This document shows positions 2 to 29,705 of a DNA stretch of 32,000 nucleotides, in pieces (the stretch's first letter is position 1; every line of letters begins with the position of its first letter). Source of the DNA: Promethearchaeota archaeon (lineage in GTDB: Archaea > Asgardarchaeota > Lokiarchaeia > Sigyniarchaeales > SOKP01); assembly GCA_030606485.1 (NCBI GenBank), contig JAUWGH010000003.1:360001-392000 (forward strand), given 5' to 3'. A model generated the notes under the pieces. The model was not told where the DNA came from and made no database searches. It worked only from the letters and a program-made list of their open reading frames with translations. A program made the position numbers and the translations under genes.

Positions 2-508
2 GCCCATGATGAAAGTGTTCAATACAATCCTGAAAGATTTCCAGGGTTAGTTATGAGAATTGAAAAGCCACGTGGCACCGCCTTAATATTTTCTACAGGA
101 AAAATGGTTATTACAGGTCTTAGAGCAGCATCTGAAGCAGACAAAGTTGTTCAAAAAATTATCAAGAATATAAAAAAAGTGGGAATAGAAATGAAAAATC
201 CTGTTATAACCGTTCAAAATATTGTAGCAAGTGGGGATCTCCATACAAACATAGATTTAAATATGGCTACTGTCGTAATGGACGATGCAATGTATGAGCC
301 TGAGGTTTTCCCCGGATTGATTTATAGAATGCAAGATCCAAAAACAGTATTTCTTGTTTTTTCAACTGGAAGAATTGTCTGTACTGGGGCAAAAACCAAA
401 CAAACAGTTCGAGAAGCAGTTCTCAAATTAAACAAGTATGTTCGAGAGATAGGAATTGCCAAGAAGAATTTAGAACCATATAATTATGGTGAATTTGATT
501 TTCTCTAA
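2..508 (+). CDS. tbp: TATA-box-binding protein (5' truncated by window edge)
   Basis: The frame is open from base 2 (AHDESVQYNPERFPGLVMRIEKP..ALIFSTGKMVITG). The second repeat reads YEPEVFPGLIYRMQDPKTVFLVFSTGRIVCTG. The ORF-track ATG at 53 is internal. Confidence 0.97.
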   Translation, partial: AHDESVQYNPERFPGLVMRIEKPRGTALIFSTGKMVITGLRAASEADKVVQKIIKNIKKVGIEMKNPVITVQNIVASGDLHTNIDLNMATVVMDDAMYEPEVFPGLIYRMQDPKTVFLVFSTGRIVCTGAKTKQTVREAVLKLNKYVREIGIAKKNLEPYNYGEFDFL

Positions 509-18486: not shown

Positions 18487-20544
18487 TTGGTAAAAATCAA
18501 AAAACCGATGAATCTAAAATTAAATAGTTTCCAGAAAAAGGCAGGAATATTCTATACTCCAGAGTACATTACTGAATTCATGGTAAAAAACGCAATTTTT
18601 GAATATATATTAACATTCTTTGAAAAAAGATATCAGACTATTGATGAATTAATTTTATCAGACAATCTGGATGACTTAAAAAAATTAAACAACATTATTA
18701 TACATTTGAAAATCTTAGACCCAGCATGTGGAGCTGGCATATTTTTATTAAAATCAGGACAAATCTTATTGGAATTAACAAATAAAATTGCAAAAAGATT
18801 AAATCTTAGACAAATGATTTTCAAAAAACGAGTTGATATAATAGAAAAAAATCTTTACGGTGTTGATATATTTGAAGAATCTATTCAAGAATGCAAATCG
18901 CAATTGAAAAAATGGTTGATTTCAAACAATCAACTTAATTTAAATAATTATGGAAATAAAAATATAAATTTTAATCTAAAGGTTGGAAATAGTTTAATTG
19001 GCAGGTTAAACGAAGAAATAAATGGAGAAGATGTATTCAACAAAAATCTTTCAATAGAATGGAAGCCATTCCATTGGAGTAAAGAATTCCCTGAGATAAT
19101 TAAAAACGGAGGATTTGATATCATTTTAGAAAATCCACCCTATATTTTTACCCGTGGTGGAAATTTTTCTACTTTACAGAAAACCTACTTTAGAAATTTC
19201 ATTTCTAAATTAGGATTAATTCAATCACAAAAAGGAAAGCAATTCCAATCGAATAAATTAAATACATATTCTCTATTTATCCTAAGGTCTTTAGAATTAT
19301 TAAAAAAAGGTGCCAAATTAGCGGTATTAATTCCAAATAATTTTCTGCGCAACACAAATCTCGATATTTATAGAGATTACATCCTTAGAAATTATTGCAT
19401 CAATCAAATTGTTGATTTATCTAATAGTGTTTTTCGAAATGTAGTTGCATCTATTATCTGCTTATTTATTGATAAAAAAAAGCCAGATGGGGAATTTAAG
19501 ACGCAAATCATATCTAATATTGAGGATCTTAATGAAAACATTTATACAGAAAATAAAATAGCACAATCCAGCTTTCTGAAAAATAAAAGTTATGTAATTA
19601 ATATACATCTTGATGAAACATCACGTAAAATTTGTAAATATATTGTAAAAAATTCAATAAATTTAGGAGAAATCACTGAATATATTATTGAAGGAATCAT
19701 TTGCTCAAAGAAGAGAGATATCTATGAAACTCGGCTGAAGTCCATAGATATGCCCTTTTTAGAAGGAAAGAACATTGATAGTTATATTACTAAATGGTCT
19801 GGCAAATTTATTAGATATGATAGAGAAAATTTACATAGGGCAAGGTCTAATGAAGTATTTACTAGCAATAAATTAATAATACAAAGAATTAGTGGAGGAA
19901 CTAAGCCTTTAAAAGCAAATTATGACCCCGGGGTCTTTTATACATTTTCATCGATAAATAATATAATTATAAATGAAGAATATCGAAAGAAGATTCCTTT
20001 AAAACTTGTTTTATTAATTTTAAACTCCAATCTAATGAACTGGTATTATGCAATTAATTTCACAAACAAATCAGAACTTACAGTAAATATTTCAAAAACT
20101 TTTTTGGAAGAGATACCCGTTGTTAAACCGAAAAACAAATCTCTTTTTGAAAATATCGCCGATTATTTGATGTTTCTATTTCAGTATTATAATATTAAAA
20201 ATGAAAAGTTAATTTTCACTGATGATATAATCCAATTCTTTTACGTATTAAGCAATGGAATAATCTATGAATTATATCTAAAAGAAAAAATTAAATCAAA
20301 TTTAATAATCGATTTAGAAAACAAATTAACGCCAATTAGATTTGAAGATTGGATTCAAATGAAGTTTAATAATATTATTTTTAACAAAAAATTTCCAGAT
20401 TTTGAAAAAATTGAAAAGGAGAATCTTGAAAAAATAAAAAATGTATATCATAAATTGGTTAAAGATAACACAATTCAGATTAATTTAAAAAAGATTTATA
20501 AAAATAAATGGATAAAGTTTATTGAGAGAGGTGTTAGAAAGTGA
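18487..20544 (+). CDS. N6-adenine DNA methyltransferase (Eco57I/TaqI-like, gamma class) with TaqI-C-like target recognition domain
   Basis: GIFYTPEYIT, motif I ILDPACGAGIFL, NLYGVD, GNSL, motif IV FDIILENPPY; TRD-like region KLIIQRI...LLILNSNL. Start is TTG 18487 or ATG 18508. Confidence 0.92.
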   Translation: MVKIKKPMNLKLNSFQKKAGIFYTPEYITEFMVKNAIFEYILTFFEKRYQTIDELILSDNLDDLKKLNNIIIHLKILDPACGAGIFLLKSGQILLELTNKIAKRLNLRQMIFKKRVDIIEKNLYGVDIFEESIQECKSQLKKWLISNNQLNLNNYGNKNINFNLKVGNSLIGRLNEEINGEDVFNKNLSIEWKPFHWSKEFPEIIKNGGFDIILENPPYIFTRGGNFSTLQKTYFRNFISKLGLIQSQKGKQFQSNKLNTYSLFILRSLELLKKGAKLAVLIPNNFLRNTNLDIYRDYILRNYCINQIVDLSNSVFRNVVASIICLFIDKKKPDGEFKTQIISNIEDLNENIYTENKIAQSSFLKNKSYVINIHLDETSRKICKYIVKNSINLGEITEYIIEGIICSKKRDIYETRLKSIDMPFLEGKNIDSYITKWSGKFIRYDRENLHRARSNEVFTSNKLIIQRISGGTKPLKANYDPGVFYTFSSINNIIINEEYRKKIPLKLVLLILNSNLMNWYYAINFTNKSELTVNISKTFLEEIPVVKPKNKSLFENIADYLMFLFQYYNIKNEKLIFTDDIIQFFYVLSNGIIYELYLKEKIKSNLIIDLENKLTPIRFEDWIQMKFNNIIFNKKFPDFEKIEKENLEKIKNVYHKLVKDNTIQINLKKIYKNKWIKFIERGVRK

Positions 20545-20773: not shown

Positions 20774-22090
20774 TTGTGGGGAATTATCATAAAAAATTTA
20801 AATATAAATCTGAATAATAAACTGGAATATTTAATAATAAAAAACCCATTGGACTTGCAAATAGAAAGAAAAGATATATTTTATCGCGAATCTTATTCCG
20901 AAATTATTGATTATATAAAATTTTTATTGAGTTATGAGGCTGTATCATCAGAAACTAAAATAAAGAAGATCAAAGGTTCAATTTTAATTGATGCTCCATA
21001 TGGCTCTGATATATTAGGATATATTAAATTGATTGCAAAGACATTCACCTTAAAATTTGTAAAGTTAAATTTTCCCGAGATTAGAAAATCACCTAATGAT
21101 TTTATATTAAATTTTCCTAATATTTTTGATAATTTGGCTAAAATTTATAGAGAAGCTAAAAAAGTAGAGCAAGAAGTTAAAGAAAAAGATAAAACTATAG
21201 AAAGAGCTTTAAAATTTATATTTATTGTTGAAAATCAACAAGAATTATTTCAGAGAACTCAGAAAGATATTCATTTTGATCTATTCGAACACTTATATTA
21301 TGAGTTAAAAAATAAGATGGAAAATATTAATTTTATCGAGAATGGGATTATTTTCATAGGAATTAATCATCAAGAGAATACTTTATGCCAAGCAAGTTTT
21401 AAATTATTTGATTTTTATTTAAAAATTCCAACGATTACTGAAAATGAAAGAATAATTATTTTAGAAAAAATTAGTGAAGAGATATCTGCAAATCAGACTT
21501 TTAATGTGGGTAGAATTGCTTCCTTAACTGAAGGTTGGGAAGTGAGTGATATAAGGGAATTGATTAAAATCGCATACTTACGGAATGTGGCTAAATTAGA
21601 TGATTCTGTCAGCGATATTACAGAATTAACAGAAAAAATAATTGACAGAGGGGAATTTATTCCTTCATATTTGATTTCACTAAATTTTATTCAAAACAAA
21701 TTAGGGACATTTCAAACTTCTATAAATTCCTCAATACATCAATCGATAAATCAAAATAGAAAGTTTAATAGAGAAGTTTCAAAAGAAGAACATATTAAAA
21801 TTCCAGAACTTGAATCTCAATTAAGAACTGAAATAGAAAAGATTAGATCACAAAGAATATCAAATTTCATGGTACAACAATTATATGAGGATGCAGCCTC
21901 AGAAAATTATACAGAGCTTTTAGTTATATTAGATAAGATGAAAAAGAAAGAACCTCTTGAAGAATATGATCGAAAATTATTAGCAGAATATTCTTTTATT
22001 TTAAATGACCCTCCAAATATCGCCTTAATACTGTTAGAAAAGGCAAAAAAACGAATTGATAATATTAAAAAAGCATTTGGGAAGGAATAG
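20774..22090 (+). CDS. Degenerate AAA+ ATPase-fold protein (pseudo-ATPase) with C-terminal helical domain
   Basis: Colinear with classical AAA modules: KGSILIDAPYGSDI (Walker A position), FIFIVEN (Walker B position), IFIGINH (sensor 1), FDFYLKIP..TENER..IL, IASLTEGWEVSDIRELIK.A (lid). Start is uncertain. Confidence 0.7.
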   Translation: MWGIIIKNLNINLNNKLEYLIIKNPLDLQIERKDIFYRESYSEIIDYIKFLLSYEAVSSETKIKKIKGSILIDAPYGSDILGYIKLIAKTFTLKFVKLNFPEIRKSPNDFILNFPNIFDNLAKIYREAKKVEQEVKEKDKTIERALKFIFIVENQQELFQRTQKDIHFDLFEHLYYELKNKMENINFIENGIIFIGINHQENTLCQASFKLFDFYLKIPTITENERIIILEKISEEISANQTFNVGRIASLTEGWEVSDIRELIKIAYLRNVAKLDDSVSDITELTEKIIDRGEFIPSYLISLNFIQNKLGTFQTSINSSIHQSINQNRKFNREVSKEEHIKIPELESQLRTEIEKIRSQRISNFMVQQLYEDAASENYTELLVILDKMKKKEPLEEYDRKLLAEYSFILNDPPNIALILLEKAKKRIDNIKKAFGKE

Positions 22091-22093
22091 AAA

Positions 22094-25000
22094 ATTTCGA
22101 CAAAAACAATTAGGTCTAGATCATCATCGGACAAATTAAACCAAGAGGTTTACATTAAAGAGATTATATTAGAAAATTTTTTAGCTTTTTCTAGAGATAA
22201 AGCCGAATTTTCCAAAGGATTTACAATTGTAGTTGGTCCTAATTGGTCAGGTAAATCCACAATTTACCAAGGGATAAAGTTTGCTTTAGGTAGCAATGAA
22301 AGGGACGAAAGATATACAAAATGGTCCGATTTTATAAGAACCGGACAAAACCATGCTCTAATCGAACTTTATATTCAGACACCTGAGAATTTGATTGGAA
22401 TACGAAGGACTGTACTTAGAGGAAAAGCTCCTTTTTTTGAAATTAAGCAAAATAATGAAAAAGAATTCGAAAAAATTAATTCCCTTGAAATAAGAGAGCT
22501 TGTAAAATCATTAAATTATAATCCGGATAATCAATTTTCTTTTGTCAGTCAAGGCAAAATTGATGCGCTTAAAGATATGAAACCTGAAGAATTATGCATT
22601 TTCTTAGAGGAAGGAGTGGGCTTAAAAGGGTTAAGACATGAAATTTTAGAGCAAAAAACTCAAGTATTCAATTTACAAGAAAAATTAAAAGCATTAAAAA
22701 CAGAGCAAAATAGTTGGAATTTTGAATTAAAATTATTGGAACCTAAGTTAAAAAGATTAGAAGATAAGCGAATTTTGCTTAAAGACAAAAAAAGCCTAAT
22801 AGATGAGTTATTATGGGCAAATCGAGAAAAAATAGAAAAAGAGATTTATATTCTTGAAGAAAATATTAAGAAAATTGCTATTATAATTAATGATTTACAA
22901 AAGCAATTAGAAGATTTTACAACGCAAATAAATGAAATTACTGAAAAAATTGAAAAAATTGAAAAAAATTCAGAAAAACTTTCTGAGAATATAGGAAAAA
23001 TAAAGGGTAGAATTTCAGAATTAGAGAAAATTATTCAACAGTGGAAGATTAAACAACAAAGGATAAAGGTACGCTTAGAAGAATTAGAACAAAATAAAAA
23101 CAAATTAAAAGGTAAATTAGACAACCATAAGGCTAAAGGAAATAAGATCTCAGAAGAATTAAAACTCACACGCAAAAATATTAAAATACTAGATTCTGCA
23201 ATCTCTAATATTTTAAAAGAACAAAATGAATTATTGGACAAGGTATCTATTCACAAAGATTTTCTTGAGAGATTTAAGAAGACAAAAGCAGAATTAAGTA
23301 AAAAACAAGATGAGCTTATTCAGAATACCCAAAAAATAACAGAAATTAATGATGAAATTGATATAATTTTCGCTGAATTAAGAGATGTAAAGCATCATTT
23401 TGAGCAAAATAAATGGTTTCTTAAAAATAAGGATGAGAATTTACAAGAAAAGTTAATAAATCAGCGTAATGATTTAGATAATGAAATTCATGATTTAAAG
23501 GAACAACTAAGAGAAATAAGAAAGGATCAGGTTAAAAGAGTTAATGCTTATAAAAGATTAAATTATTCCATTAGAGAAAAAAGAGTATTCTTACCTCAAA
23601 ATGTCATAACTTTAAAAGAAGAGATTTACAATAGAAATCTAAATGCAAAAGGTCCAATAATTGAATTATTACAATATAATGATAAATTGGGGTTTGCAAT
23701 TGAATCAGTTTTAGGAAAAAAAGTGTTATTTAGTTTTATTGCAGGCGATTGGAACACATTTATTCTACTAAAAAAATTGAAAGATAGTTATAATGTTTAT
23801 TGCAATATATATATACCAAAGGAAGAAAATATTCGTCAATTTTCAAAATATGAGAAAATTGATGGAGTATTAGGTTATCTCGCAGAATTAATTAAAATTA
23901 AGGGCAATGATGAACATGTAAGGAAATTAATTTATTCTAAAGTGAAAAATTGTCTTGTAGTAGAAGATTTTACTACAGGAACACTTATGCATAAAAATTA
24001 CAAATTTAGAGGTAAATGTGTAACATTAAAAGGCGAGCAAATCATATCCTATGATTATGTGGTTGAAACACCATACTTAAAGAAATTAGAAGGATTATTA
24101 AGTCCTACTAAACAAATGGATCAATTATATCTGTTAGAAATGGAAATAAGTAAATTGAATGATGAAAGAAAGAATTTAGAATCCCTAAAAACTAAAATAG
24201 ATCAAAAATATCGAGAAGTTTCCAAGAAAATTGATGCTTTACCTACTCTTGAATTATTATTCCGGCAAGAACAAAAACTTTTAAGCAAAAAAGATAATCT
24301 CTTTGAAACAAGAAAAAATAAGAACGAATTGAATGATAATATTGAAATGCAAATCGATGATGTGGTAAAAGAAGTGGAAACTTTAAAAAAAGAACAAAAA
24401 CCAGAATTTTTTGAATGGCAGAAGAGTTTAGAAAATATTCCAGACGAATTTGATTTAAAAAACAATGAAAAGAAACATTGGTCAAAAATTAATGATGAAA
24501 AACAGAAATCCTTATCTGAAATTCAAGAAATTATAAATGAAGAAACAGCTGAATTTACAAAAATAAACATTAGTTATAAAACAACCAAAAAAGAGTTTCA
24601 AAGTAGAGATCAAAAGGCATTTGAAGTATTTCAGGAACTAACTGGACTTGAAAATCAAATTAAGGATTTAAAAATTCAGAAAGAAAAGTATGAGTTAGAT
24701 AAAAAGGCTCTTAAGGAAGAAGAAAATAAAATTAGACAAGAAAATCTTGAGTTTAATTTAAATTATGAAAGAAAACAAGACCAATTGAGTTCGCAGCAAA
24801 ATGATCTCCAATCCAAAATTTTAGATTTAGAAAAAGTAAATAAAGAGATTGGTCCAAAAATATTAAGTGAAGAAATAAAAATACGTCCAATTGAAGAAAT
24901 TGAAAAGAGTCTTCTCGAAGTGAATAAAGAATTAATGAAATACGCAGATATTGATGATACTTTAGAAGTAGAAAAAGAGAGAATTATTAAAATACTTAAA

Positions 25001-25549
25001 AAAATTGCTCAAAATCAAGCGCAAATTCAGAGAGACCTTATTGAAGCAGAAGAAACCGAAAAGAATTTAGAAAATACATATTACAAAAAGTTCAATAAAA
25101 TTATCAAAAAACTAGAAGATTTAATTAATAAAAAATTTGAAATATCTGAAATTAAAGCTCAGTGTTCAATTGATTTATCGGGGAAATTTGAAAATTTAGG
25201 CATAAAAATTAAAGCATCTTTATTAAAAGAACAACTACGAGATATAACCGCATTAAGTGGGGGGCAACGCTCTATTATTGCAATTTGTTTAATACTTTCT
25301 TTACAAGAATTTAAATCAAGTAGGATAATTGTATTAGACGAAGCTGAATTATACTTGGATGAAAATAATGCTGAAATCGCCTATAAATTGATAAAGGGCG
25401 CAATTCAGATGAATAAAACACAAATAATAATATTTGTGCCAAAAGCATCTAAATATATTTATTCAATGGCAGATAAACTCATTGGAGTTGCAAGAAATGG
25501 AGCAATAGGACCATCAACGATACTCCAACCTAAGATAATAAAGACTTAA
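22094..25549 (+). CDS. smc: SMC-family ATPase (full length, about 1150 aa), Smc5/6-like motifs; start codon non-canonical or unresolved
   Basis: The frame is open from 22091: VYIKEIILENF, Walker A GPNWSGKST (22235-22261), Q-loop FVSQGKID, long coiled coils, hinge GPIIELL...AIESVLG, signature LSGGQRS, Walker B IIVLDE. The ORF-track start at 22391 omits the N-terminal head. Confidence 0.92.
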   Translation: MSTKTIRSRSSSDKLNQEVYIKEIILENFLAFSRDKAEFSKGFTIVVGPNWSGKSTIYQGIKFALGSNERDERYTKWSDFIRTGQNHALIELYIQTPENLIGIRRTVLRGKAPFFEIKQNNEKEFEKINSLEIRELVKSLNYNPDNQFSFVSQGKIDALKDMKPEELCIFLEEGVGLKGLRHEILEQKTQVFNLQEKLKALKTEQNSWNFELKLLEPKLKRLEDKRILLKDKKSLIDELLWANREKIEKEIYILEENIKKIAIIINDLQKQLEDFTTQINEITEKIEKIEKNSEKLSENIGKIKGRISELEKIIQQWKIKQQRIKVRLEELEQNKNKLKGKLDNHKAKGNKISEELKLTRKNIKILDSAISNILKEQNELLDKVSIHKDFLERFKKTKAELSKKQDELIQNTQKITEINDEIDIIFAELRDVKHHFEQNKWFLKNKDENLQEKLINQRNDLDNEIHDLKEQLREIRKDQVKRVNAYKRLNYSIREKRVFLPQNVITLKEEIYNRNLNAKGPIIELLQYNDKLGFAIESVLGKKVLFSFIAGDWNTFILLKKLKDSYNVYCNIYIPKEENIRQFSKYEKIDGVLGYLAELIKIKGNDEHVRKLIYSKVKNCLVVEDFTTGTLMHKNYKFRGKCVTLKGEQIISYDYVVETPYLKKLEGLLSPTKQMDQLYLLEMEISKLNDERKNLESLKTKIDQKYREVSKKIDALPTLELLFRQEQKLLSKKDNLFETRKNKNELNDNIEMQIDDVVKEVETLKKEQKPEFFEWQKSLENIPDEFDLKNNEKKHWSKINDEKQKSLSEIQEIINEETAEFTKINISYKTTKKEFQSRDQKAFEVFQELTGLENQIKDLKIQKEKYELDKKALKEEENKIRQENLEFNLNYERKQDQLSSQQNDLQSKILDLEKVNKEIGPKILSEEIKIRPIEEIEKSLLEVNKELMKYADIDDTLEVEKERIIKILKKIAQNQAQIQRDLIEAEETEKNLENTYYKKFNKIIKKLEDLINKKFEISEIKAQCSIDLSGKFENLGIKIKASLLKEQLRDITALSGGQRSIIAICLILSLQEFKSSRIIVLDEAELYLDENNAEIAYKLIKGAIQMNKTQIIIFVPKASKYIYSMADKLIGVARNGAIGPSTILQPKIIKT

Positions 25550-25566
25550 AAGAAATTTGAATTATT

Positions 25567-26238
25567 ATGGAAAAAAATAACTCCTCTACCCCGTCTATTA
25601 TTGAAGAAATTCAAAAAATTTTTGAAACAGTTCGTAGTGGGTCTCTAGATGCTCTAAGTGTAGATTTAAATCCCATTTTTCAAAAATTTAAACGAGCTAT
25701 AAATGCACAAAATCTGAATGAATCATCTTCCGCATTTAGCAAGTTATGTGATATTATTGAAACAAAATTTAACGAATTACAGATGTATTTGGCCCTATTT
25801 GGTCAAGAAAAGAAGTTCTTAACATTTTTAGAATCAAATCCTTCTGATATTGAAGTATTCAGTCTTTTTAAAGGATGTTGGTATAAACCCTATAATTTAA
25901 ATGCATTATCTCTTGATTTTTTAGAGGAGTCTAAAAATTCCCTGGAAAGTAGAATAAGAGAAGGTTATATAATTGAAAATCTTGAAATCCCACTAAAAGA
26001 TGAGAATTTTATATTAGAAATACCTTCAAGTTCATTTCAAAAAACAATTGAAAACTATTTTAATAAAATATATAAAAAATTGCCATGTAATATGGACGAT
26101 CTCTTCGAAGAACTCGAGAGTCAGGAAGAGATATATGAAAAATTTATTATTATTTTACATTTACTTCAAAATGGAAAAATAATGTATCAAAAACAGACAA
26201 ATTTTATTTATATACCAAAAGGTGGAAAAGATGAATGA
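25567..26238 (+). CDS. Kleisin (ScpA/Nse4-like)
   Basis: Immediately downstream of smc. The C-terminal segment ..FIIILHLLQNGKI...Q...FIYI matches the kleisin C-terminal wHTH pattern; size is typical of ScpA. Confidence 0.72.
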   Translation: MEKNNSSTPSIIEEIQKIFETVRSGSLDALSVDLNPIFQKFKRAINAQNLNESSSAFSKLCDIIETKFNELQMYLALFGQEKKFLTFLESNPSDIEVFSLFKGCWYKPYNLNALSLDFLEESKNSLESRIREGYIIENLEIPLKDENFILEIPSSSFQKTIENYFNKIYKKLPCNMDDLFEELESQEEIYEKFIIILHLLQNGKIMYQKQTNFIYIPKGGKDE

Positions 26239-26746
26239 AATATCCTTATTGATGTATTTATTAAGTAAGAAAGACCAATTAGATGAGATGGGCTCAACTA
26301 AAGAAGAAGTCTTAGAAAAATTGCAAATTTCTGGGCGAAATAAAGGATTTATGTTTAAAAAACTAATTATTGAACTTTCTAAATATATTTCTCCCTTAGG
26401 ACTCGAAATTCAATATAATCCGTTAAATACCCATTGGTTCTTAACTTTTAAATCAAGTATGAATGATCTGATTTTAGCAAACCCATTTCAAGATAAACCA
26501 CGATTGGCTGCAACTTTATTTTGTGCAATAATTTTATGCTTAAAAAGTAATGGTATTGCAAAAATAGTTGAATTAAAGAAATTAAGAAATAAAAAAGAAA
26601 TCCGGGACGACCTAAAAGATTTAGAAAATCTAGGTTATATTAAAATTATTAAAAATTATAATGAAATTAATTTAACCCCACTTATTGGATACCAGCTAAA
26701 CCTCGAAAAATTATTTATGAAATTATCATTAAAATTAAATGTTTGA
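26231..26746 (+). CDS. KITE subunit (ScpB/Nse1/Nse3-like tandem wHTH)
   Basis: Overlaps the kleisin stop (ATGAATGA). The two wHTH-like halves (L..Y..PLGLEI......WFL; AATL...I.......EL..LR......L..LE.LGYI) follow the ScpB architecture. AGGTGG upstream favours ATG 26231. Confidence 0.7.
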   Translation: MNEISLLMYLLSKKDQLDEMGSTKEEVLEKLQISGRNKGFMFKKLIIELSKYISPLGLEIQYNPLNTHWFLTFKSSMNDLILANPFQDKPRLAATLFCAIILCLKSNGIAKIVELKKLRNKKEIRDDLKDLENLGYIKIIKNYNEINLTPLIGYQLNLEKLFMKLSLKLNV

Positions 26747-26847: not shown

Positions 26848-28278
26848 ATGCCTTCCTTAACATCTCAAAAAGAAGGTCGACCAACTAAATTTTTGGTTCT
26901 TTTTAAAAAGTTCTGGCCAAATTTCGTCGTATATAATTCATGGGCACTAACTATTTCATCCTTGTATATAAATATAATAATCGTTTCAAATATAATTTGG
27001 GCTGGAGAAGAGATTCATGTTGGAGAACTAGGAATTCTGTTTGGATTCGGAACATGGATGATGGGAATTTCAGGTTTGTTTTTTGGTTATTTAGCAGATA
27101 GGATTAATCGCATAAAACTTATGACATTAACTATGATAATGTTTGGAGTTGGTATGTTAATAAATGGATTTAGTCCAGAAGGGCAAGGATCCTTAACTTT
27201 TAACTTCTTTTTAGGATGCCTTTTATTCAGAAATTTTTTTTGTGGTGGGTTTTGGCCTATTATTCTCTCATATACAAACGATGCTGTAGAAGAATTTGAA
27301 CGTTCTCGGTTTTTTGGTGCTATAAATGCCACTTTTCAAGTTTTTCAGATAAGTGGGATGTTAATTTCCACCTTGTTATTTCAAAATCAATTTTGGCGTG
27401 AATTTATGTGGGGTATGGGATTGTTATATTTCATTGGAAGTATTATGATCTATCTAAAAGGTATTGAACCTAAGAGAGGAGGTACCCAAAATCAATTAAA
27501 AACAGTTTTATTCGAATCAAGGATCAAATATCAGTATAAATTAACAAAAAAAACATTTAGAACTACTATTTTAAAGCCTACTATTTGTATTTTATTTGTT
27601 GAGGGTATTTTTATTTCAATGTGTTTCTCATTGGTTGACTTTCTATTTATAACCTATTTACAATCACCACCTCATAACATTTCTCCCTTTATAACTACTG
27701 TATATCTGACTATATTTGGAATTTCTGGTGGCATTTTAGGATCTATCGGTTTTTCCAAGCTTTCTGATAGATTGGCAAATAAAAACTTCAAAAATCGTAT
27801 TTACTTAATTGTTTTTTCAATAGTAATAGTATTTTCGACATATATCTTTTTATTTTTTATTCCAATACAGAGTATGACTCCCGTTCAAGGAAATGATTTA
27901 GTATTTATAATAACTACTCCCGCATTTTGGTTACTTGGTATTGGCGCATTTATTTTTCGTTCCATTATAAGTATATATAGTATTAATCAACCACCACTTA
28001 TACAAAAAATTAATTTACCAGAAAGTCAAGGAATAATCAGTTCTTCTAGTCAATTTTTAGATTTTATAGGTCTCGGAACAGGACCAATAATAGCTGGTGT
28101 GATTTTGGAGTTATATAATAGAAATTATCAAATTACAGTGCTAATTTCAATGATTATTGGAATTGCAGGTGTACTCTTTTGGTTAATAGCAATAAAATGG
28201 ATTGATAAAGATATAGAAACAATTAAATCAATACTCAATCAACGAGCTGAAGAGATGGCTAGAATTAATGGGAAGTGA
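26848..28278 (+). CDS. Major facilitator superfamily transporter
   Basis: About 12 TM; motif A GYLADRINR and second-half SKLSDRLA; ERSRFFG loop. Confidence 0.92.
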   Translation: MPSLTSQKEGRPTKFLVLFKKFWPNFVVYNSWALTISSLYINIIIVSNIIWAGEEIHVGELGILFGFGTWMMGISGLFFGYLADRINRIKLMTLTMIMFGVGMLINGFSPEGQGSLTFNFFLGCLLFRNFFCGGFWPIILSYTNDAVEEFERSRFFGAINATFQVFQISGMLISTLLFQNQFWREFMWGMGLLYFIGSIMIYLKGIEPKRGGTQNQLKTVLFESRIKYQYKLTKKTFRTTILKPTICILFVEGIFISMCFSLVDFLFITYLQSPPHNISPFITTVYLTIFGISGGILGSIGFSKLSDRLANKNFKNRIYLIVFSIVIVFSTYIFLFFIPIQSMTPVQGNDLVFIITTPAFWLLGIGAFIFRSIISIYSINQPPLIQKINLPESQGIISSSSQFLDFIGLGTGPIIAGVILELYNRNYQITVLISMIIGIAGVLFWLIAIKWIDKDIETIKSILNQRAEEMARINGK

Positions 28279-28888
28279 TAATTTTTAATATCATGGCCGC
28301 CAAGTTGTCATTATAATCTTCCATACCTTCTAAATGTTCTCCTACAGTGTTGAAGAAATCCACAATTTCTATTTTTCTTTTTTCAAAGAAAGCCTGAATT
28401 TTTTCTCTTGCTTCTTGAAGCTTCTTATCTCTTTGAGCTTTACTCCCCTTCACCAAATCAACCTTATTAATACACACATAGATTTTTTTAGGAAAGAAAC
28501 GGACATCATTGAAAAATTCAAATTGTTTTTCAATAGGGCGATCCAAAGCAAATACAGCAATAATCTGTGAAGCGATCCGGCTAATTGTAATGATCCCCAT
28601 TCTAACAACTGCCCGGGCTTTATCTCCCCCAGGTGCGAATATCGTATGTGCTTTTTTTTCAGTTTCATCTCTAAAAATAACGCGATTGGGATGTATGGTT
28701 TTAGTTTCCTTTTTCTCTGTAGCTTCTCGAGGTAAAGTTGCCTCTCCAGAAAAGTCGGTCTTTACAATTACACATTTTCTTCCACCTTCCAGTGTTTCGA
28801 GTTTTTGTTTATTAATATAACTTACAAATAATCTTAAGAGGGTTGTTTTTCCTACAGAAATATCACCTAATAACCCTAGATTCACCAT
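28265..28888 (-). CDS. Atypical small P-loop GTPase
   Basis: G1 GDISVGKTT and G4 INKVD are clear. The G3 position reads FAPGG (no Asp) and the switch-I region is long. Confidence 0.78.
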   Translation of the reverse strand: MVNLGLLGDISVGKTTLLRLFVSYINKQKLETLEGGRKCVIVKTDFSGEATLPREATEKKETKTIHPNRVIFRDETEKKAHTIFAPGGDKARAVVRMGIITISRIASQIIAVFALDRPIEKQFEFFNDVRFFPKKIYVCINKVDLVKGSKAQRDKKLQEAREKIQAFFEKRKIEIVDFFNTVGEHLEGMEDYNDNLAAMILKIITSH

Positions 28889-28889
28889 C

Positions 28890-29705
28890 TTAATCTTCCT
28901 CCTCCTTTAATAATTTATTTAATAGAGTTTCATAATCAGGTATGAGATATTGTTCGAGTAGTGCACTATTATGGGCATTAATTAATCCTACAAAAACTTC
29001 CTTTAAATTCTTTGAATTTTTAAGATATTTTATTATCGTTTCAGATTCTACTCCAGCTCTTAGTGGTTTTGGTTCAGTATCAAATCCGAAATTTTCACTC
29101 GGAGGTAAAGAATTAAAAAATCCGAATGCAGTGTAGCCTTCATAAGCATAATAGCAAAAGAATCGAGATTTAATTGATTGAATAATCCTCGTCATATATA
29201 CACTTGGATATAACTCTCCAAGGGTCATACTTCCATCATAAGTTATGAGATAATAGGGGCTTATAGGAGATTTTCTTAAGCCAAACATTTCTTGAGGAGG
29301 TAAACAAACAAAAGGAATTTTTTCTTCGATAATGGCCCATAAATCCCATCGTTCTGCATCATTTAAAATTTGTTTAACTTCATCGAAAGCATAGTAAAAA
29401 TCTTGTTGAAAACTAAGTAGAGAACTTAGATAGACAGATAGAGATGCAAAAGTTGCTTCTAATACCGGCTGCTTTTTACTATCTTCGCTAGGTTTTATTG
29501 CACCACGCCAACTTCTTACTGCTGAATATGCAAATCCTTGAACATCAAAAAAATTCCCAGAAAGTATTATAAATTGTGGTATTTCCCCTTCTTCATCCGT
29601 GAGTAATTCTCTGGTTTTATTTAACAAAGCTACTTCAAGATTTATCTCTTTGTAGCCAGAATGCAATTGTGGCATTATCAGCCATTTATATTTCTTTTTT
29701 ACCAT
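28890..29705 (-). CDS. Hypothetical protein, probable inactive calcineurin-like metallophosphoesterase fold
   Basis: 271 aa open frame coupled to the GTPase. Degenerate motif series in the correct order: LIMPQLH, FIILSGNFFD, FVCLPPQE, LITYDG, LINAHNS. Confidence 0.55.
   Translation of the reverse strand: MVKKKYKWLIMPQLHSGYKEINLEVALLNKTRELLTDEEGEIPQFIILSGNFFDVQGFAYSAVRSWRGAIKPSEDSKKQPVLEATFASLSVYLSSLLSFQQDFYYAFDEVKQILNDAERWDLWAIIEEKIPFVCLPPQEMFGLRKSPISPYYLITYDGSMTLGELYPSVYMTRIIQSIKSRFFCYYAYEGYTAFGFFNSLPPSENFGFDTEPKPLRAGVESETIIKYLKNSKNLKEVFVGLINAHNSALLEQYLIPDYETLLNKLLKEEED

What the first reader, a model, noticed from the sequence alone, without database searches (positions are those of the whole stretch)
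22094..26746. Archaeal SMC-kleisin-KITE operon with Smc5/6-like signatures
Seen: the H-loop is QIIIFVPK with no His (Smc5 has QYF..TPK; canonical Smc has I[ST]H). The signature is LSGGQRS (Smc5/6 SGGERS). The D-loop is DEAELYLD rather than DEVDAALD (Smc6 DEFDVFMD). The hinge GPIIELL...AIESVLG...FSFIAGD lacks the GRATFLPL motif of canonical prokaryotic Smc. The Q-loop (SQGKID) is still prokaryote-like. Known: only Smc5/6 among eukaryotic SMCs uses KITE subunits, and Smc5/6-related archaeal SMCs have been noted in phylogenetic surveys. Inference: a complete single-SMC, single-KITE proto-Smc5/6 complex, informative for the origin of Smc5/6 and possibly acting on extrachromosomal or viral DNA as Smc5/6 does.
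Basis: partly seen in the sequence, partly recalled or inferred. Interest (0 to 1): 0.75.

Follow-up and report, generated by a model that had tools for sequence, protein, structure and literature searches.

The report
Asgard Smc5/6-related SMC operon, known type
This Asgard archaeon carries, besides two ordinary SMC systems, the already published "SMC5/6-related" SMC-kleisin-kite operon. It is a new member of a known kind, and the only part I did not find in the papers searched is a dead AAA+ gene that always sits directly in front of it.

Summary
One frame is open from 22094 to 25549 and encodes a full-length but divergent SMC. A 223-aa protein with kleisin architecture and a 174-aa tandem winged-helix (KITE) protein follow it.

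The SMC lies outside canonical Smc: 34 canonical rows, including this genome's two other SMCs, split off with 100/100 support. It belongs to a clade whose named members are all Asgard. In that clade a proline replaces the H-loop histidine in all 34 rows.

The Promethearchaeum syntrophicum counterpart of the kleisin is DSAG12_00498. That gene sits in the operon that van Hooff et al. (bioRxiv 10.1101/2024.01.07.573240) call SMC5/6-related. Yoshinaga & Inagaki (PMC8665677) defined this class of SMC in 2021. So the core idea is in print, and this scan had already met the same operon in at least 20 other genomes.

My own tests show no special similarity to eukaryotic Smc5/6, Nse4 or Nse1/3. The C-terminal head scores best against Pyrococcus Smc, and the kite model fits ScpB best. 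I could not obtain eukaryotic sequences, so the Smc5/6 sister relation rests on the literature.

I found no sign of a role against foreign DNA. The cassette really has four genes: an AAA+-derived gene sits upstream in 79 of 80 loci and in all eight distant lineages sampled. It reaches Pfam's AAA model in three of these (its motifs read as intact in Odin) and has decayed here.

The parts
20774..22090 (+). Degenerate AAA+-like protein (438 aa), first gene of the cassette and candidate fourth subunit
   Evidence: It lies directly upstream of the SMC in 79 of 80 related loci and in all 8 distant Asgard subclades sampled. hhalign of the family against the Odinarchaeota upstream gene gives probability 81%, E 1.2e-5, over 247 columns. 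That Odin gene is a true PF00004 AAA at 127 bits with GPPGTGKT. Language-model features place it with AAA clusters at 0.96-0.97. The P-loop has decayed to NPGTD in the family consensus.
22094..25549 (+). Divergent SMC ATPase (about 1150 aa), probably starting at ATT 22094
   Evidence: The frame is open and all motifs are present. The tree places it outside canonical Smc with 100/100 support. Other loci have ATG, TTG or ACG followed by GCT at the matching place behind a Shine-Dalgarno-like run.
22235..22261 (+). Walker A (GPNWSGKST)
   Evidence: Read from the translation. G48-K54 are invariant in the family alignment.
23648..23980 (+). Hinge domain, weak Pfam match
   Evidence: PF06470 scores 23.2 bits at G000:C8:383648-383980. 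This genome's canonical Smc scores 117 bits.
25253..25273 (+). Signature motif LSGGQRS
   Evidence: Read. S1055, G, G, Q and S1060 are invariant.
25337..25360 (+). Walker B end and D-loop (DEAELYLD)
   Evidence: Read. D1082, E1083, L1088 and D1089 are invariant.
25421..25444 (+). H-loop position, QIIIFVPK, with Pro1116 in place of His
   Evidence: Pro is invariant in the family and in all 34 non-canonical rows. Canonical rows have His or Leu there.
25567..26238 (+). Kleisin candidate (223 aa)
   Evidence: The gene is present at this place in 72 of 80 loci; nearly all of the rest run off a contig end. The model has mean pLDDT 74.5 and shows an N-terminal helical domain with one long helix, a disordered middle and a C-terminal winged helix. 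The top full-length Foldseek rows are kleisins (Brn1, Nse4, JetA, ScpA C-domain), all at E above 0.01. The C-terminal winged helix matches the ScpA C-domain 4i99_C at Z 7.8, rmsd 2.0, 61 residues, within the general winged-helix background. The P. syntrophicum counterpart is DSAG12_00498, which I match to the gene called an Nse4-related kleisin.
26222..26746 (+). KITE protein (174 aa from GTG 26222; an ATG follows at 26231)
   Evidence: The model has mean pLDDT 81.6 and shows two winged-helix domains in tandem. VIA-align gives ScpB 3w6j_C Z 12.1 (rmsd 3.7, 152 residues) and 4i98_C Z 12.0, Nse1 7dg2_A Z 9.6, and Nse3 Z 8.4-8.5. Foldseek's top rows are ScpB, MAGE-G1/Nse1, JetB and MukE. The gene is present in 66 of 80 loci; nearly all of the rest run off a contig end.

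Best explanation
Bases 20774-26746 hold one co-directional four-gene operon: a catalytically decayed AAA+-like protein, a divergent SMC ATPase, a short kleisin and a single small KITE protein. It is the counterpart, in this uncultured Promethearchaeota (Lokiarchaeia) genome, of the archaeal "SMC5/6-related" complex already described in TACK and Asgard archaea.

The likely mechanism is inferred from the SMC field and not shown here. Two copies of the SMC would join at the hinge. The kleisin would bridge the neck of one head and the cap of the other through its N-terminal helices and its C-terminal winged helix. A KITE dimer would sit on the middle of the kleisin. The ring would then hold or move DNA in an ATP-driven cycle.

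Walker A, Q-loop, signature and Walker B are intact, so the SMC is probably an active ATPase. The H-loop His is replaced by Pro throughout the clade.

The complex works beside two canonical-type Smc systems in the same genome. This points to a separate chromosomal task, such as repair, replication-linked junctions or a second mode of folding, and not to bulk segregation. The AAA+-like protein is probably a non-enzymatic partner or regulator.
For: - Motifs and open frame.
- Family of more than 480 members in Asgard MAGs, 41-45% identical.
- Four-gene synteny: AAA-like in 79, kleisin in 72 and kite in 66 of 80 loci, nearly all of the gaps being contig ends. The same order holds in 8 further subclades.
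- Tree: 34 canonical rows, including this genome's C10 and C2 SMCs, form one side of a branch with 100/100 support and length 1.3. The window family has 100/100 support.
- Clade members with a name are Promethearchaeota, Hodarchaeota, Baldrarchaeia, Thorarchaeota and Odinarchaeota.
- KITE fold: Z 12.1 to ScpB over 152 residues.
- Kleisin architecture, with kleisins at the top of Foldseek.
- Link to the literature: genome G143 is P. syntrophicum (4,324,194 bp), and its cassette kleisin is DSAG12_00498. The cassette lies about 323 kb from the long-SMC operon, on the opposite strand. This fits the paper's genes 495-497 (+) and 810-808 (-).
- Language-model neighbours include eukaryotic SMC6 clusters at 0.98. 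This is a lead only.
- The kite is present in 120 of 134 genomes of the same family and in 221 of 400 Asgard genomes.
Against: - I could not place eukaryotic Smc1-6 in my own tree, so the Smc5/6 link rests on two papers. One of them could not reject monophyly of all eukaryotic SMCs (p-AU 0.317).
- Profile-to-PDB scores do not favour Smc5/6.
- The kite is structurally nearer to ScpB than to Nse1 or Nse3. In a relative it even reaches the Pfam ScpB cut-off (28.4 bits).
- The kleisin fold matches are weak (E above 0.01; Z 7-8 within the winged-helix background).
- No canonical start codon is present.
- Function and binding are wholly inferred.
Confidence: 0.8

Rival explanations
1. It is a fast-evolving, Asgard-specific paralog of archaeal Smc-ScpAB with no special kinship to eukaryotic Smc5/6. 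Under this reading, the published sister relation is a long-branch effect.
For: - The C-head profile scores best against Pyrococcus Smc (91.5-98.6 bits) and only 47-59 bits against Smc5/6.
- The N-head scores about equally against everything, Rad50 included.
- The kite fits ScpB best and reaches the ScpB Pfam cut-off in one relative.
- The best 150 representatives include canonical Smc but no recognised eukaryotic Smc5/6.
- The paper's own topology test is not decisive.
Against: - Two independent published phylogenies place such archaeal SMCs with SMC5/6, and one reports that removing long branches or recoding changed little.
- Nse4 groups with the archaeal kleisins with strong support in the paper.
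- Language-model neighbours include SMC6 clusters.
- The H-loop Pro is clade-wide. From memory it is shared with Smc5/6 (TPK/TPQ); I did not test this here.
Confidence: 0.15
2. It is an SMC-based defence system against phage or plasmid DNA (Wadjet-, Lamassu- or MADS-like), working with the neighbouring DNA methyltransferase.
For: - The PADLOC mad3 model hits SMC residues 20-256 (E 9.5e-23), and weak LmuB and JetC hits follow.
- An Eco57I-type methyltransferase lies two genes upstream at 18487-20544.
Against: - The PADLOC hits cover only the generic head or coiled coil.
- No nuclease or Toprim partner lies in the cassette.
- The methylase is present in only 2 of 80 loci, both near-identical relatives.
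- The cassette is present in 120 of 134 genomes of the family and keeps the same chromosomal neighbours in 52-56 loci. This is unlike a mobile defence island.
Confidence: 0.04
3. The SMC gene is a decaying pseudogene, because it has lost its start codon.
For: No ATG, GTG or TTG lies before 22391, so the Walker A motif sits upstream of any standard start.
Against: - A 1151-codon frame stays open in DNA of about 27% G+C.
- A 97% identical relative keeps the same ATT, and at least 9 other loci have ACG-GCT where most have ATG-GCT or TTG-GCT, behind a purine-rich ribosome-binding-like run.
- All catalytic motifs are intact.
- Independent contigs show no indels.
Confidence: 0.02

Closest known systems
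Archaeal "SMC5/6-related" SMC-kleisin-kite operon (Yoshinaga & Inagaki 2021, PMC8665677; van Hooff, Raas, Tromer & Eme, bioRxiv 10.1101/2024.01.07.573240), e.g. P. syntrophicum NZ_CP042905.1_495-497
   Same: - Same gene order: SMC, short kleisin, small kite.
- It is a second or third SMC system beside canonical ones.
- The P. syntrophicum cassette found with the window's profiles carries DSAG12_00498, which I match to the paper's gene _496.
   Different: - The papers read do not mention the AAA+-type gene directly upstream (one search found no paper on it).
- This genus uses ATT instead of a standard start codon.
Eukaryotic Smc5/6 holocomplex (Smc5, Smc6, Nse1-6)
   Same: - An SMC ring with a kleisin and winged-helix KITE subunits rather than HEAT-repeat subunits.
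- Pro at the H-loop position and an SGG[EQ]RS-type signature. That these are shared with Smc5/6 is recalled from memory and was not tested here.
   Different: - One SMC gene and one kite gene instead of pairs.
- The operon holds no Nse1 RING, Nse2 SUMO ligase or Nse5/6.
- Sequence profiles score no higher against Smc5/6 than against other SMCs.
Prokaryotic Smc-ScpAB
   Same: - Overall architecture.
- The kite model superposes best on ScpB (Z 12.1).
- The C-head profile scores best against Pyrococcus Smc.
   Different: - SMC_prok_A scores 187 bits against a cut-off of 729.
- The hinge match is barely detectable.
- The window's kleisin and kite give no Pfam ScpA or ScpB match.
- The tree separates it from canonical Smc with 100/100 support.
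- The genome has its own ScpA/ScpB-type genes elsewhere.

Membership tests
SMC proteins in the broad sense | Split ABC head (Walker A, Q-loop, signature, Walker B), long antiparallel coiled coil, central hinge | tested here: met
   SMC_N scores 48 bits. The hinge scores 23.2 bits against a cut-off of 22.5. The end-to-end alignment to SMC_prok_A covers residues 20-1135.
Canonical prokaryotic Smc (TIGR02169/TIGR02168) | Score above the equivalog cut-off and grouping with canonical Smc in a tree | tested here: not met
   It scores 186.9 bits against a cut-off of 729.4. The canonical rows form a separate side of a 100/100 branch.
Archaeal SMC5/6-related SMC complex (published class) | SMC distinct from canonical archaeal Smc, co-occurring with one | tested here: met
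   Tree. Two canonical-type SMCs lie on contigs C10 and C2 of the same genome.
Archaeal SMC5/6-related SMC complex (published class) | Its own kleisin and kite genes directly downstream | tested here: met
Archaeal SMC5/6-related SMC complex (published class) | Correspondence to a published member | tested here: met
   The kleisin of the P. syntrophicum cassette is DSAG12_00498. Distance and strand relative to the other SMC operon fit the paper's gene numbers. The match of locus tag to gene number is inferred, not read from a record.
Archaeal SMC5/6-related SMC complex (published class) | Sister position to eukaryotic SMC5+SMC6 in a tree | not testable with these tools
   No tool gave me eukaryotic SMC sequences that I could put in a tree. 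I rely.
Eukaryotic Smc5/6 holocomplex | Heterodimer of two SMC paralogs and two kites (Nse1, Nse3) | tested here: not met
   The cassette has one SMC gene and one kite gene. The kite profile finds only one copy in the genome.
KITE proteins | Two winged-helix domains in tandem, encoded next to a kleisin | tested here: met
   Model. ScpB matches at Z 12.1 and 12.0 over 150-152 residues. Nse1, Nse3, JetB and MukE are also listed.
Kleisins | N-terminal helical domain, flexible middle, C-terminal winged helix that binds the SMC cap | tested here: inconclusive
   The architecture fits, and the top full-length Foldseek rows are kleisins, but at E 0.02-0.3. The C-terminal winged helix scores Z 7.8 to the ScpA C-domain, within the generic background. 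The NCBIfam ScpA C-terminal match has E 0.004. Binding was not tested.
SMC-based defence systems (Wadjet, Lamassu, MADS) | Dedicated nuclease or effector partner and a patchy, island-like distribution | tested here: not met
   The cassette has no such gene. It occurs in 120 of 134 genomes of the family, with stable neighbours.

The most novel reading that the evidence does not exclude
The AAA+-derived protein encoded directly in front of the SMC gene is a true fourth subunit or dedicated regulator of the Asgard SMC5/6-related complex. It would be ancestral to the clade: its motifs read as intact in Odin, it still reaches Pfam's AAA model in Thorarchaeota and one unnamed lineage, and it has turned into a non-enzymatic adaptor in Lokiarchaeia and Hodarchaeia. 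If so, the closest prokaryotic relatives of eukaryotes pair a proto-Smc5/6 ring with a protein-remodelling module that the papers I searched do not describe.
Probability: 0.5. Interest if true: 0.6.

Novelty: new member of a known kind. Interest (0 to 1): 0.35.

Why it matters
Eukaryotes have three families of SMC complexes, and how Smc5/6 arose is an open question. Asgard operons of this type are the best candidate for its prokaryotic forerunner.

This window adds one more well-assembled example, in a genome that carries three SMC systems side by side. It also adds three clear details:
- a proline at the H-loop position across the whole clade;
- weak or non-standard start codons for the SMC gene;
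- an AAA+-type gene that is always attached.

None of this changes the published picture. The AAA+ partner could be tested directly in the cultured relative P. syntrophicum, and it would matter if it proves to be part of the machine.

Tried and rejected
- Sequence profiles of the kleisin and kite families against all PDB sequences gave only chance-level hits.
- Pfam scans of every family member gave no ScpA, ScpB, Nse or MAGE match.
- hhalign against this genome's own ScpA-like and ScpB-like proteins was not significant (E 0.14-0.52).
- The complex prediction of the AAA-like protein with kleisin and kite returned "no answer" (score 0.31, mark 0.32). I do not count it either way.
- I could not obtain eukaryotic Smc5/6 sequences. 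The best 150 library representatives held none that I recognised, and PDB searches return no reusable sequences. No tree with eukaryotes was therefore built.
- I first took G135 (4.36 Mb, one contig) for P. syntrophicum. It is Ca. Harpocratesius repetitus, and G143 is P. syntrophicum.
- Searching the paper's supplement for my contig accessions found nothing.
- PF28256, listed for one homolog, is not in the local Pfam copy.
- The kite's language-model neighbours (MAGE 0.81, MksE/DUF4194 0.77) are below the level that counts.
- Two metatranscriptome contigs lie on the AAA-like gene and on the start of the SMC gene. They come from a related strain, and DNA carry-over cannot be excluded, so I do not claim expression.
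- The MADS/mad3 PADLOC hit was rejected because it covers only the head.


Full report
**What is there**

The window is G000:C8:360001-392000 of a 3.75-Mb, 13-contig genome. The window itself has about 27% G+C. Homolog names place the organism in Promethearchaeota/Lokiarchaeia, an Asgard lineage.

One frame is open from 22094 to 25549.

- Pfam sees SMC_N at 48 bits and a weak hinge, at 18.8 bits or 23.2 bits against a cut-off of 22.5.
- NCBIfam SMC_prok_A aligns end to end but scores 187 bits against a cut-off of 729.
- Two small ORFs follow: 25567-26238 (223 aa) and 26222-26746 (174 aa). Neither has a Pfam match.

**The start codon**

No ATG, GTG or TTG lies between the TAG at 22088-22090, which ends the upstream gene in the same frame, and 22391.

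- In most of the 80 related loci the SMC starts with ATG-GCT or TTG-GCT behind a purine-rich run.
- At least nine loci have ACG-GCT at that place.
- This genus has ATT at 22094, seven bases behind GGAAGGA.
- Contigs from other metagenome studies cover the junction without indels.

I read this as use of weak, non-standard start codons, not as gene decay.

**The downstream genes**

I aligned about 30 orthologs of each protein from related loci and folded both.

*The 174-aa protein.* The model has mean pLDDT 81.6 and shows two winged-helix domains in tandem.
- Foldseek's best rows are ScpB, MAGE-G1/Nse1, JetB, MukE and Nse1/Nse3.
- VIA-align gives ScpB Z 12.1 (rmsd 3.7, 152 residues) and 12.0, Nse1 9.6, and Nse3 8.4-8.5.
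- It is a KITE protein, and its shape is closest to ScpB.

*The 223-aa protein.* The model has mean pLDDT 74.5. It shows an N-terminal helical domain with one long helix, a disordered middle and a C-terminal winged helix.
- The top full-length Foldseek rows are kleisins (Brn1, Nse4, JetA, ScpA C-domain), but at E 0.02-0.3.
- The C-terminal domain matches the ScpA and Scc1 C-domains at Z 7.2-7.8, which is within the general winged-helix background.
- Kleisin identity therefore rests on architecture, gene position and the literature. I rate it at about 0.9.

Sequence profiles found no solved relative for either protein. They found no significant link to this genome's own ScpA/ScpB-type proteins either.

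**Other SMC systems in the genome**

There are two more.
- Contig C10 has a 1195-aa Smc with a strong hinge (117 bits) and H-loop LITHKE, followed directly by a 196-aa ScpB-like kite. A stand-alone ScpA-like gene lies on C1.
- Contig C2 has a 1476-aa SMC (H-loop VISHRE) followed by a 328-aa kleisin with weak ScpA and Rad21/Rec8 matches and a 331-aa protein with a strong ScpB domain.

**Where the SMC belongs**

A profile of the family searched against 1.84 billion representatives gave a graded series of full-length relatives at 320-750 bits, and then canonical Smc at 190 bits or less.

I built a tree on 500 head and hinge columns (68 rows, LG+C20+F+G4, careful search).
- All 34 canonical rows, bacterial and archaeal and including this genome's C10 and C2 SMCs, fall on one side of a branch of length 1.3 with 100/100 support.
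- The window family has 100/100 support and sits in a 16-row group with 100/97 support (the quick version is).
- The non-canonical rows that carry names are Promethearchaeota, Hodarchaeota, Baldrarchaeia, Thorarchaeota and Odinarchaeota.
- All 34 non-canonical rows have Pro at the H-loop position. Canonical rows have His or Leu.

The refutation test "branches inside canonical archaeal Smc" therefore fails.

**Link to Smc5/6**

This part is already in print.
- Yoshinaga & Inagaki 2021 defined "SMC5/6-related" archaeal SMCs.
- van Hooff et al. describe complete SMC5/6-related SMC-kleisin-kite operons in TACK and Asgard archaea. They name P. syntrophicum genes NZ_CP042905.1_495-497 as an example.

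I tied the window to that example as follows.
- The kite profile finds a cassette in genome G143, a single contig of 4,324,194 bp.
- That genome has the same four genes in the same order.
- Its kleisin is DSAG12_00498 of P. syntrophicum.
- The cassette lies about 323 kb from the long-SMC operon, on the opposite strand. This fits genes 495-497 (+) and 810-808 (-) at about 1 kb per gene.

**What my own tests add is sobering**

- The family profile scores Smc4 at 97.6 bits, Pyrococcus Smc heads at about 80, Smc6 at 79.7 and Smc5 at 77.7.
- The C-head profile scores Pyrococcus Smc at 91.5-98.6 bits and Smc5/6 at only 47-59.
- The N-head profile scores all SMCs, and even Rad50, at about 72-84 bits.
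- Language-model neighbours do include eukaryotic SMC6 clusters at 0.98, which is only a lead.
- No tool gave me eukaryotic sequences for a tree, so the sister relation to Smc5/6 rests on the papers. One of them could not reject monophyly of all eukaryotic SMCs (p-AU 0.317).

**The cassette has four genes**

The 438-aa gene at 20774-22090 lies directly upstream of the SMC in 79 of 80 loci. A gene of 315-478 aa holds the same place in all eight distant subclades I sampled.

- In Odinarchaeota it is a true AAA ATPase: PF00004 at 127 bits plus a lid domain, with GPPGTGKT and a DEF Walker B.
- In Thorarchaeota and in one unnamed lineage it still matches PF00004.
- The window's family aligns to the Odin protein at probability 81%, E 1.2e-5, over 247 columns. 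Its P-loop has decayed to NPGTD.
- Language-model features agree on AAA.
- The preprint does not mention it, and a literature search found no paper on it.
- A complex prediction with kleisin and kite gave no answer.

**Context and function**

- The Eco57I-type methyltransferase (18487-20544) and the MFS transporter (26848-28278) that flank the cassette here occur only in the two nearest relatives.
- In 52-56 other loci the cassette is followed directly by the convergent gene pair found at 28265-29705 in this window.
- The kite is present in 120 of 134 genomes of the same family and in 221 of 400 Asgard genomes.
- The cassette contains no nuclease.

This is the pattern of a widely conserved chromosomal machine, not of a mobile defence system. 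The suggestion of action on viral or extrachromosomal DNA has no support here.

**Earlier work of this scan**

The same operon, with its dead AAA+ gene, was reported before on other DNA. Twenty-six notes in at least 20 genomes hold the search words, and the eight shown describe this operon type. Those notes named the same two papers as closest known. I reached the papers and the synteny independently and then found that they agree.

**Verdict**

The feature is real and correctly recognised. It is a new member of a published kind. The Smc5/6 reading is reasonable but not strengthened by my tests. The attached AAA+-derived gene is the only element that may be new.

Noticed in passing
window 22088-22100; loci L044, L051, L054, L058, L066, L074, L085, L087, L057: The SMC gene of this family often lacks a standard start. 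Nine loci have ACG-GCT where most have ATG-GCT or TTG-GCT behind a GGTGA/GAGG-like run. This genus has ATT. This suggests deliberately weak initiation or coupling to the upstream gene.
   Followed up: partly
window 18487-20544 and 26848-28278: The Eco57I-type DNA methyltransferase (with a TaqI_C specificity domain) and the MFS transporter flank the cassette only in this genus. They look like insertions on either side of an otherwise conserved neighbourhood.
   Followed up: partly
window 28265-28888 (-) and 28890-29705 (-): A GTPase-like gene (206 aa, weak GTP_EFTU match) and a 270-aa gene without a Pfam match form a convergent pair. This pair follows the kite gene directly in 52-56 related loci, with a median gap of 35 bases. 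All these loci may belong to one family, so shared ancestry could explain the pattern.
   Followed up: partly
G000:C2:361962-368374 (L101) and G000:C10:788372-792542 (L102): The genome has three SMC systems. The C2 SMC is unusually long (1476 aa) and has no Pfam hinge match. Its kleisin shows a weak Rad21/Rec8 C-terminal match (E 0.006), and its kite is 331 aa. The C10 Smc is followed directly by its kite, with no kleisin between them.
   Followed up: partly
L109 1-809 and 814-2595; L110 19-1716; L111 8019-9842: MoxR-type AAA_5 genes, with a large neighbouring ORF in L109 and L111, lie next to the four-gene cassette in 3 of the 8 distant Asgard loci sampled. Earlier notes of this scan report the same pairing.
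   Followed up: no
L011 4994-5494; L015 11090-11626; G225:C42:266-778: A few kite genes carry in-frame stop codons: one TGA in L011, four stops in L015, and three TGA plus one TAA in G225. These may be decayed copies or assembly errors.
   Followed up: no
L013 5103-5516 and 44 other loci: An ArsR-type HTH gene (about 131 aa, HTH_5 at 57 bits) lies upstream of the cassette on the same strand in 45 loci. This window lacks it.
   Followed up: no
window 21207-21844 and 22356-22671: Two contigs of a metatranscriptome run lie on the AAA-like gene and on the start of the SMC gene, at 97-99% identity. This is a weak hint that a related strain expresses both genes. DNA carry-over is not excluded.
   Followed up: no
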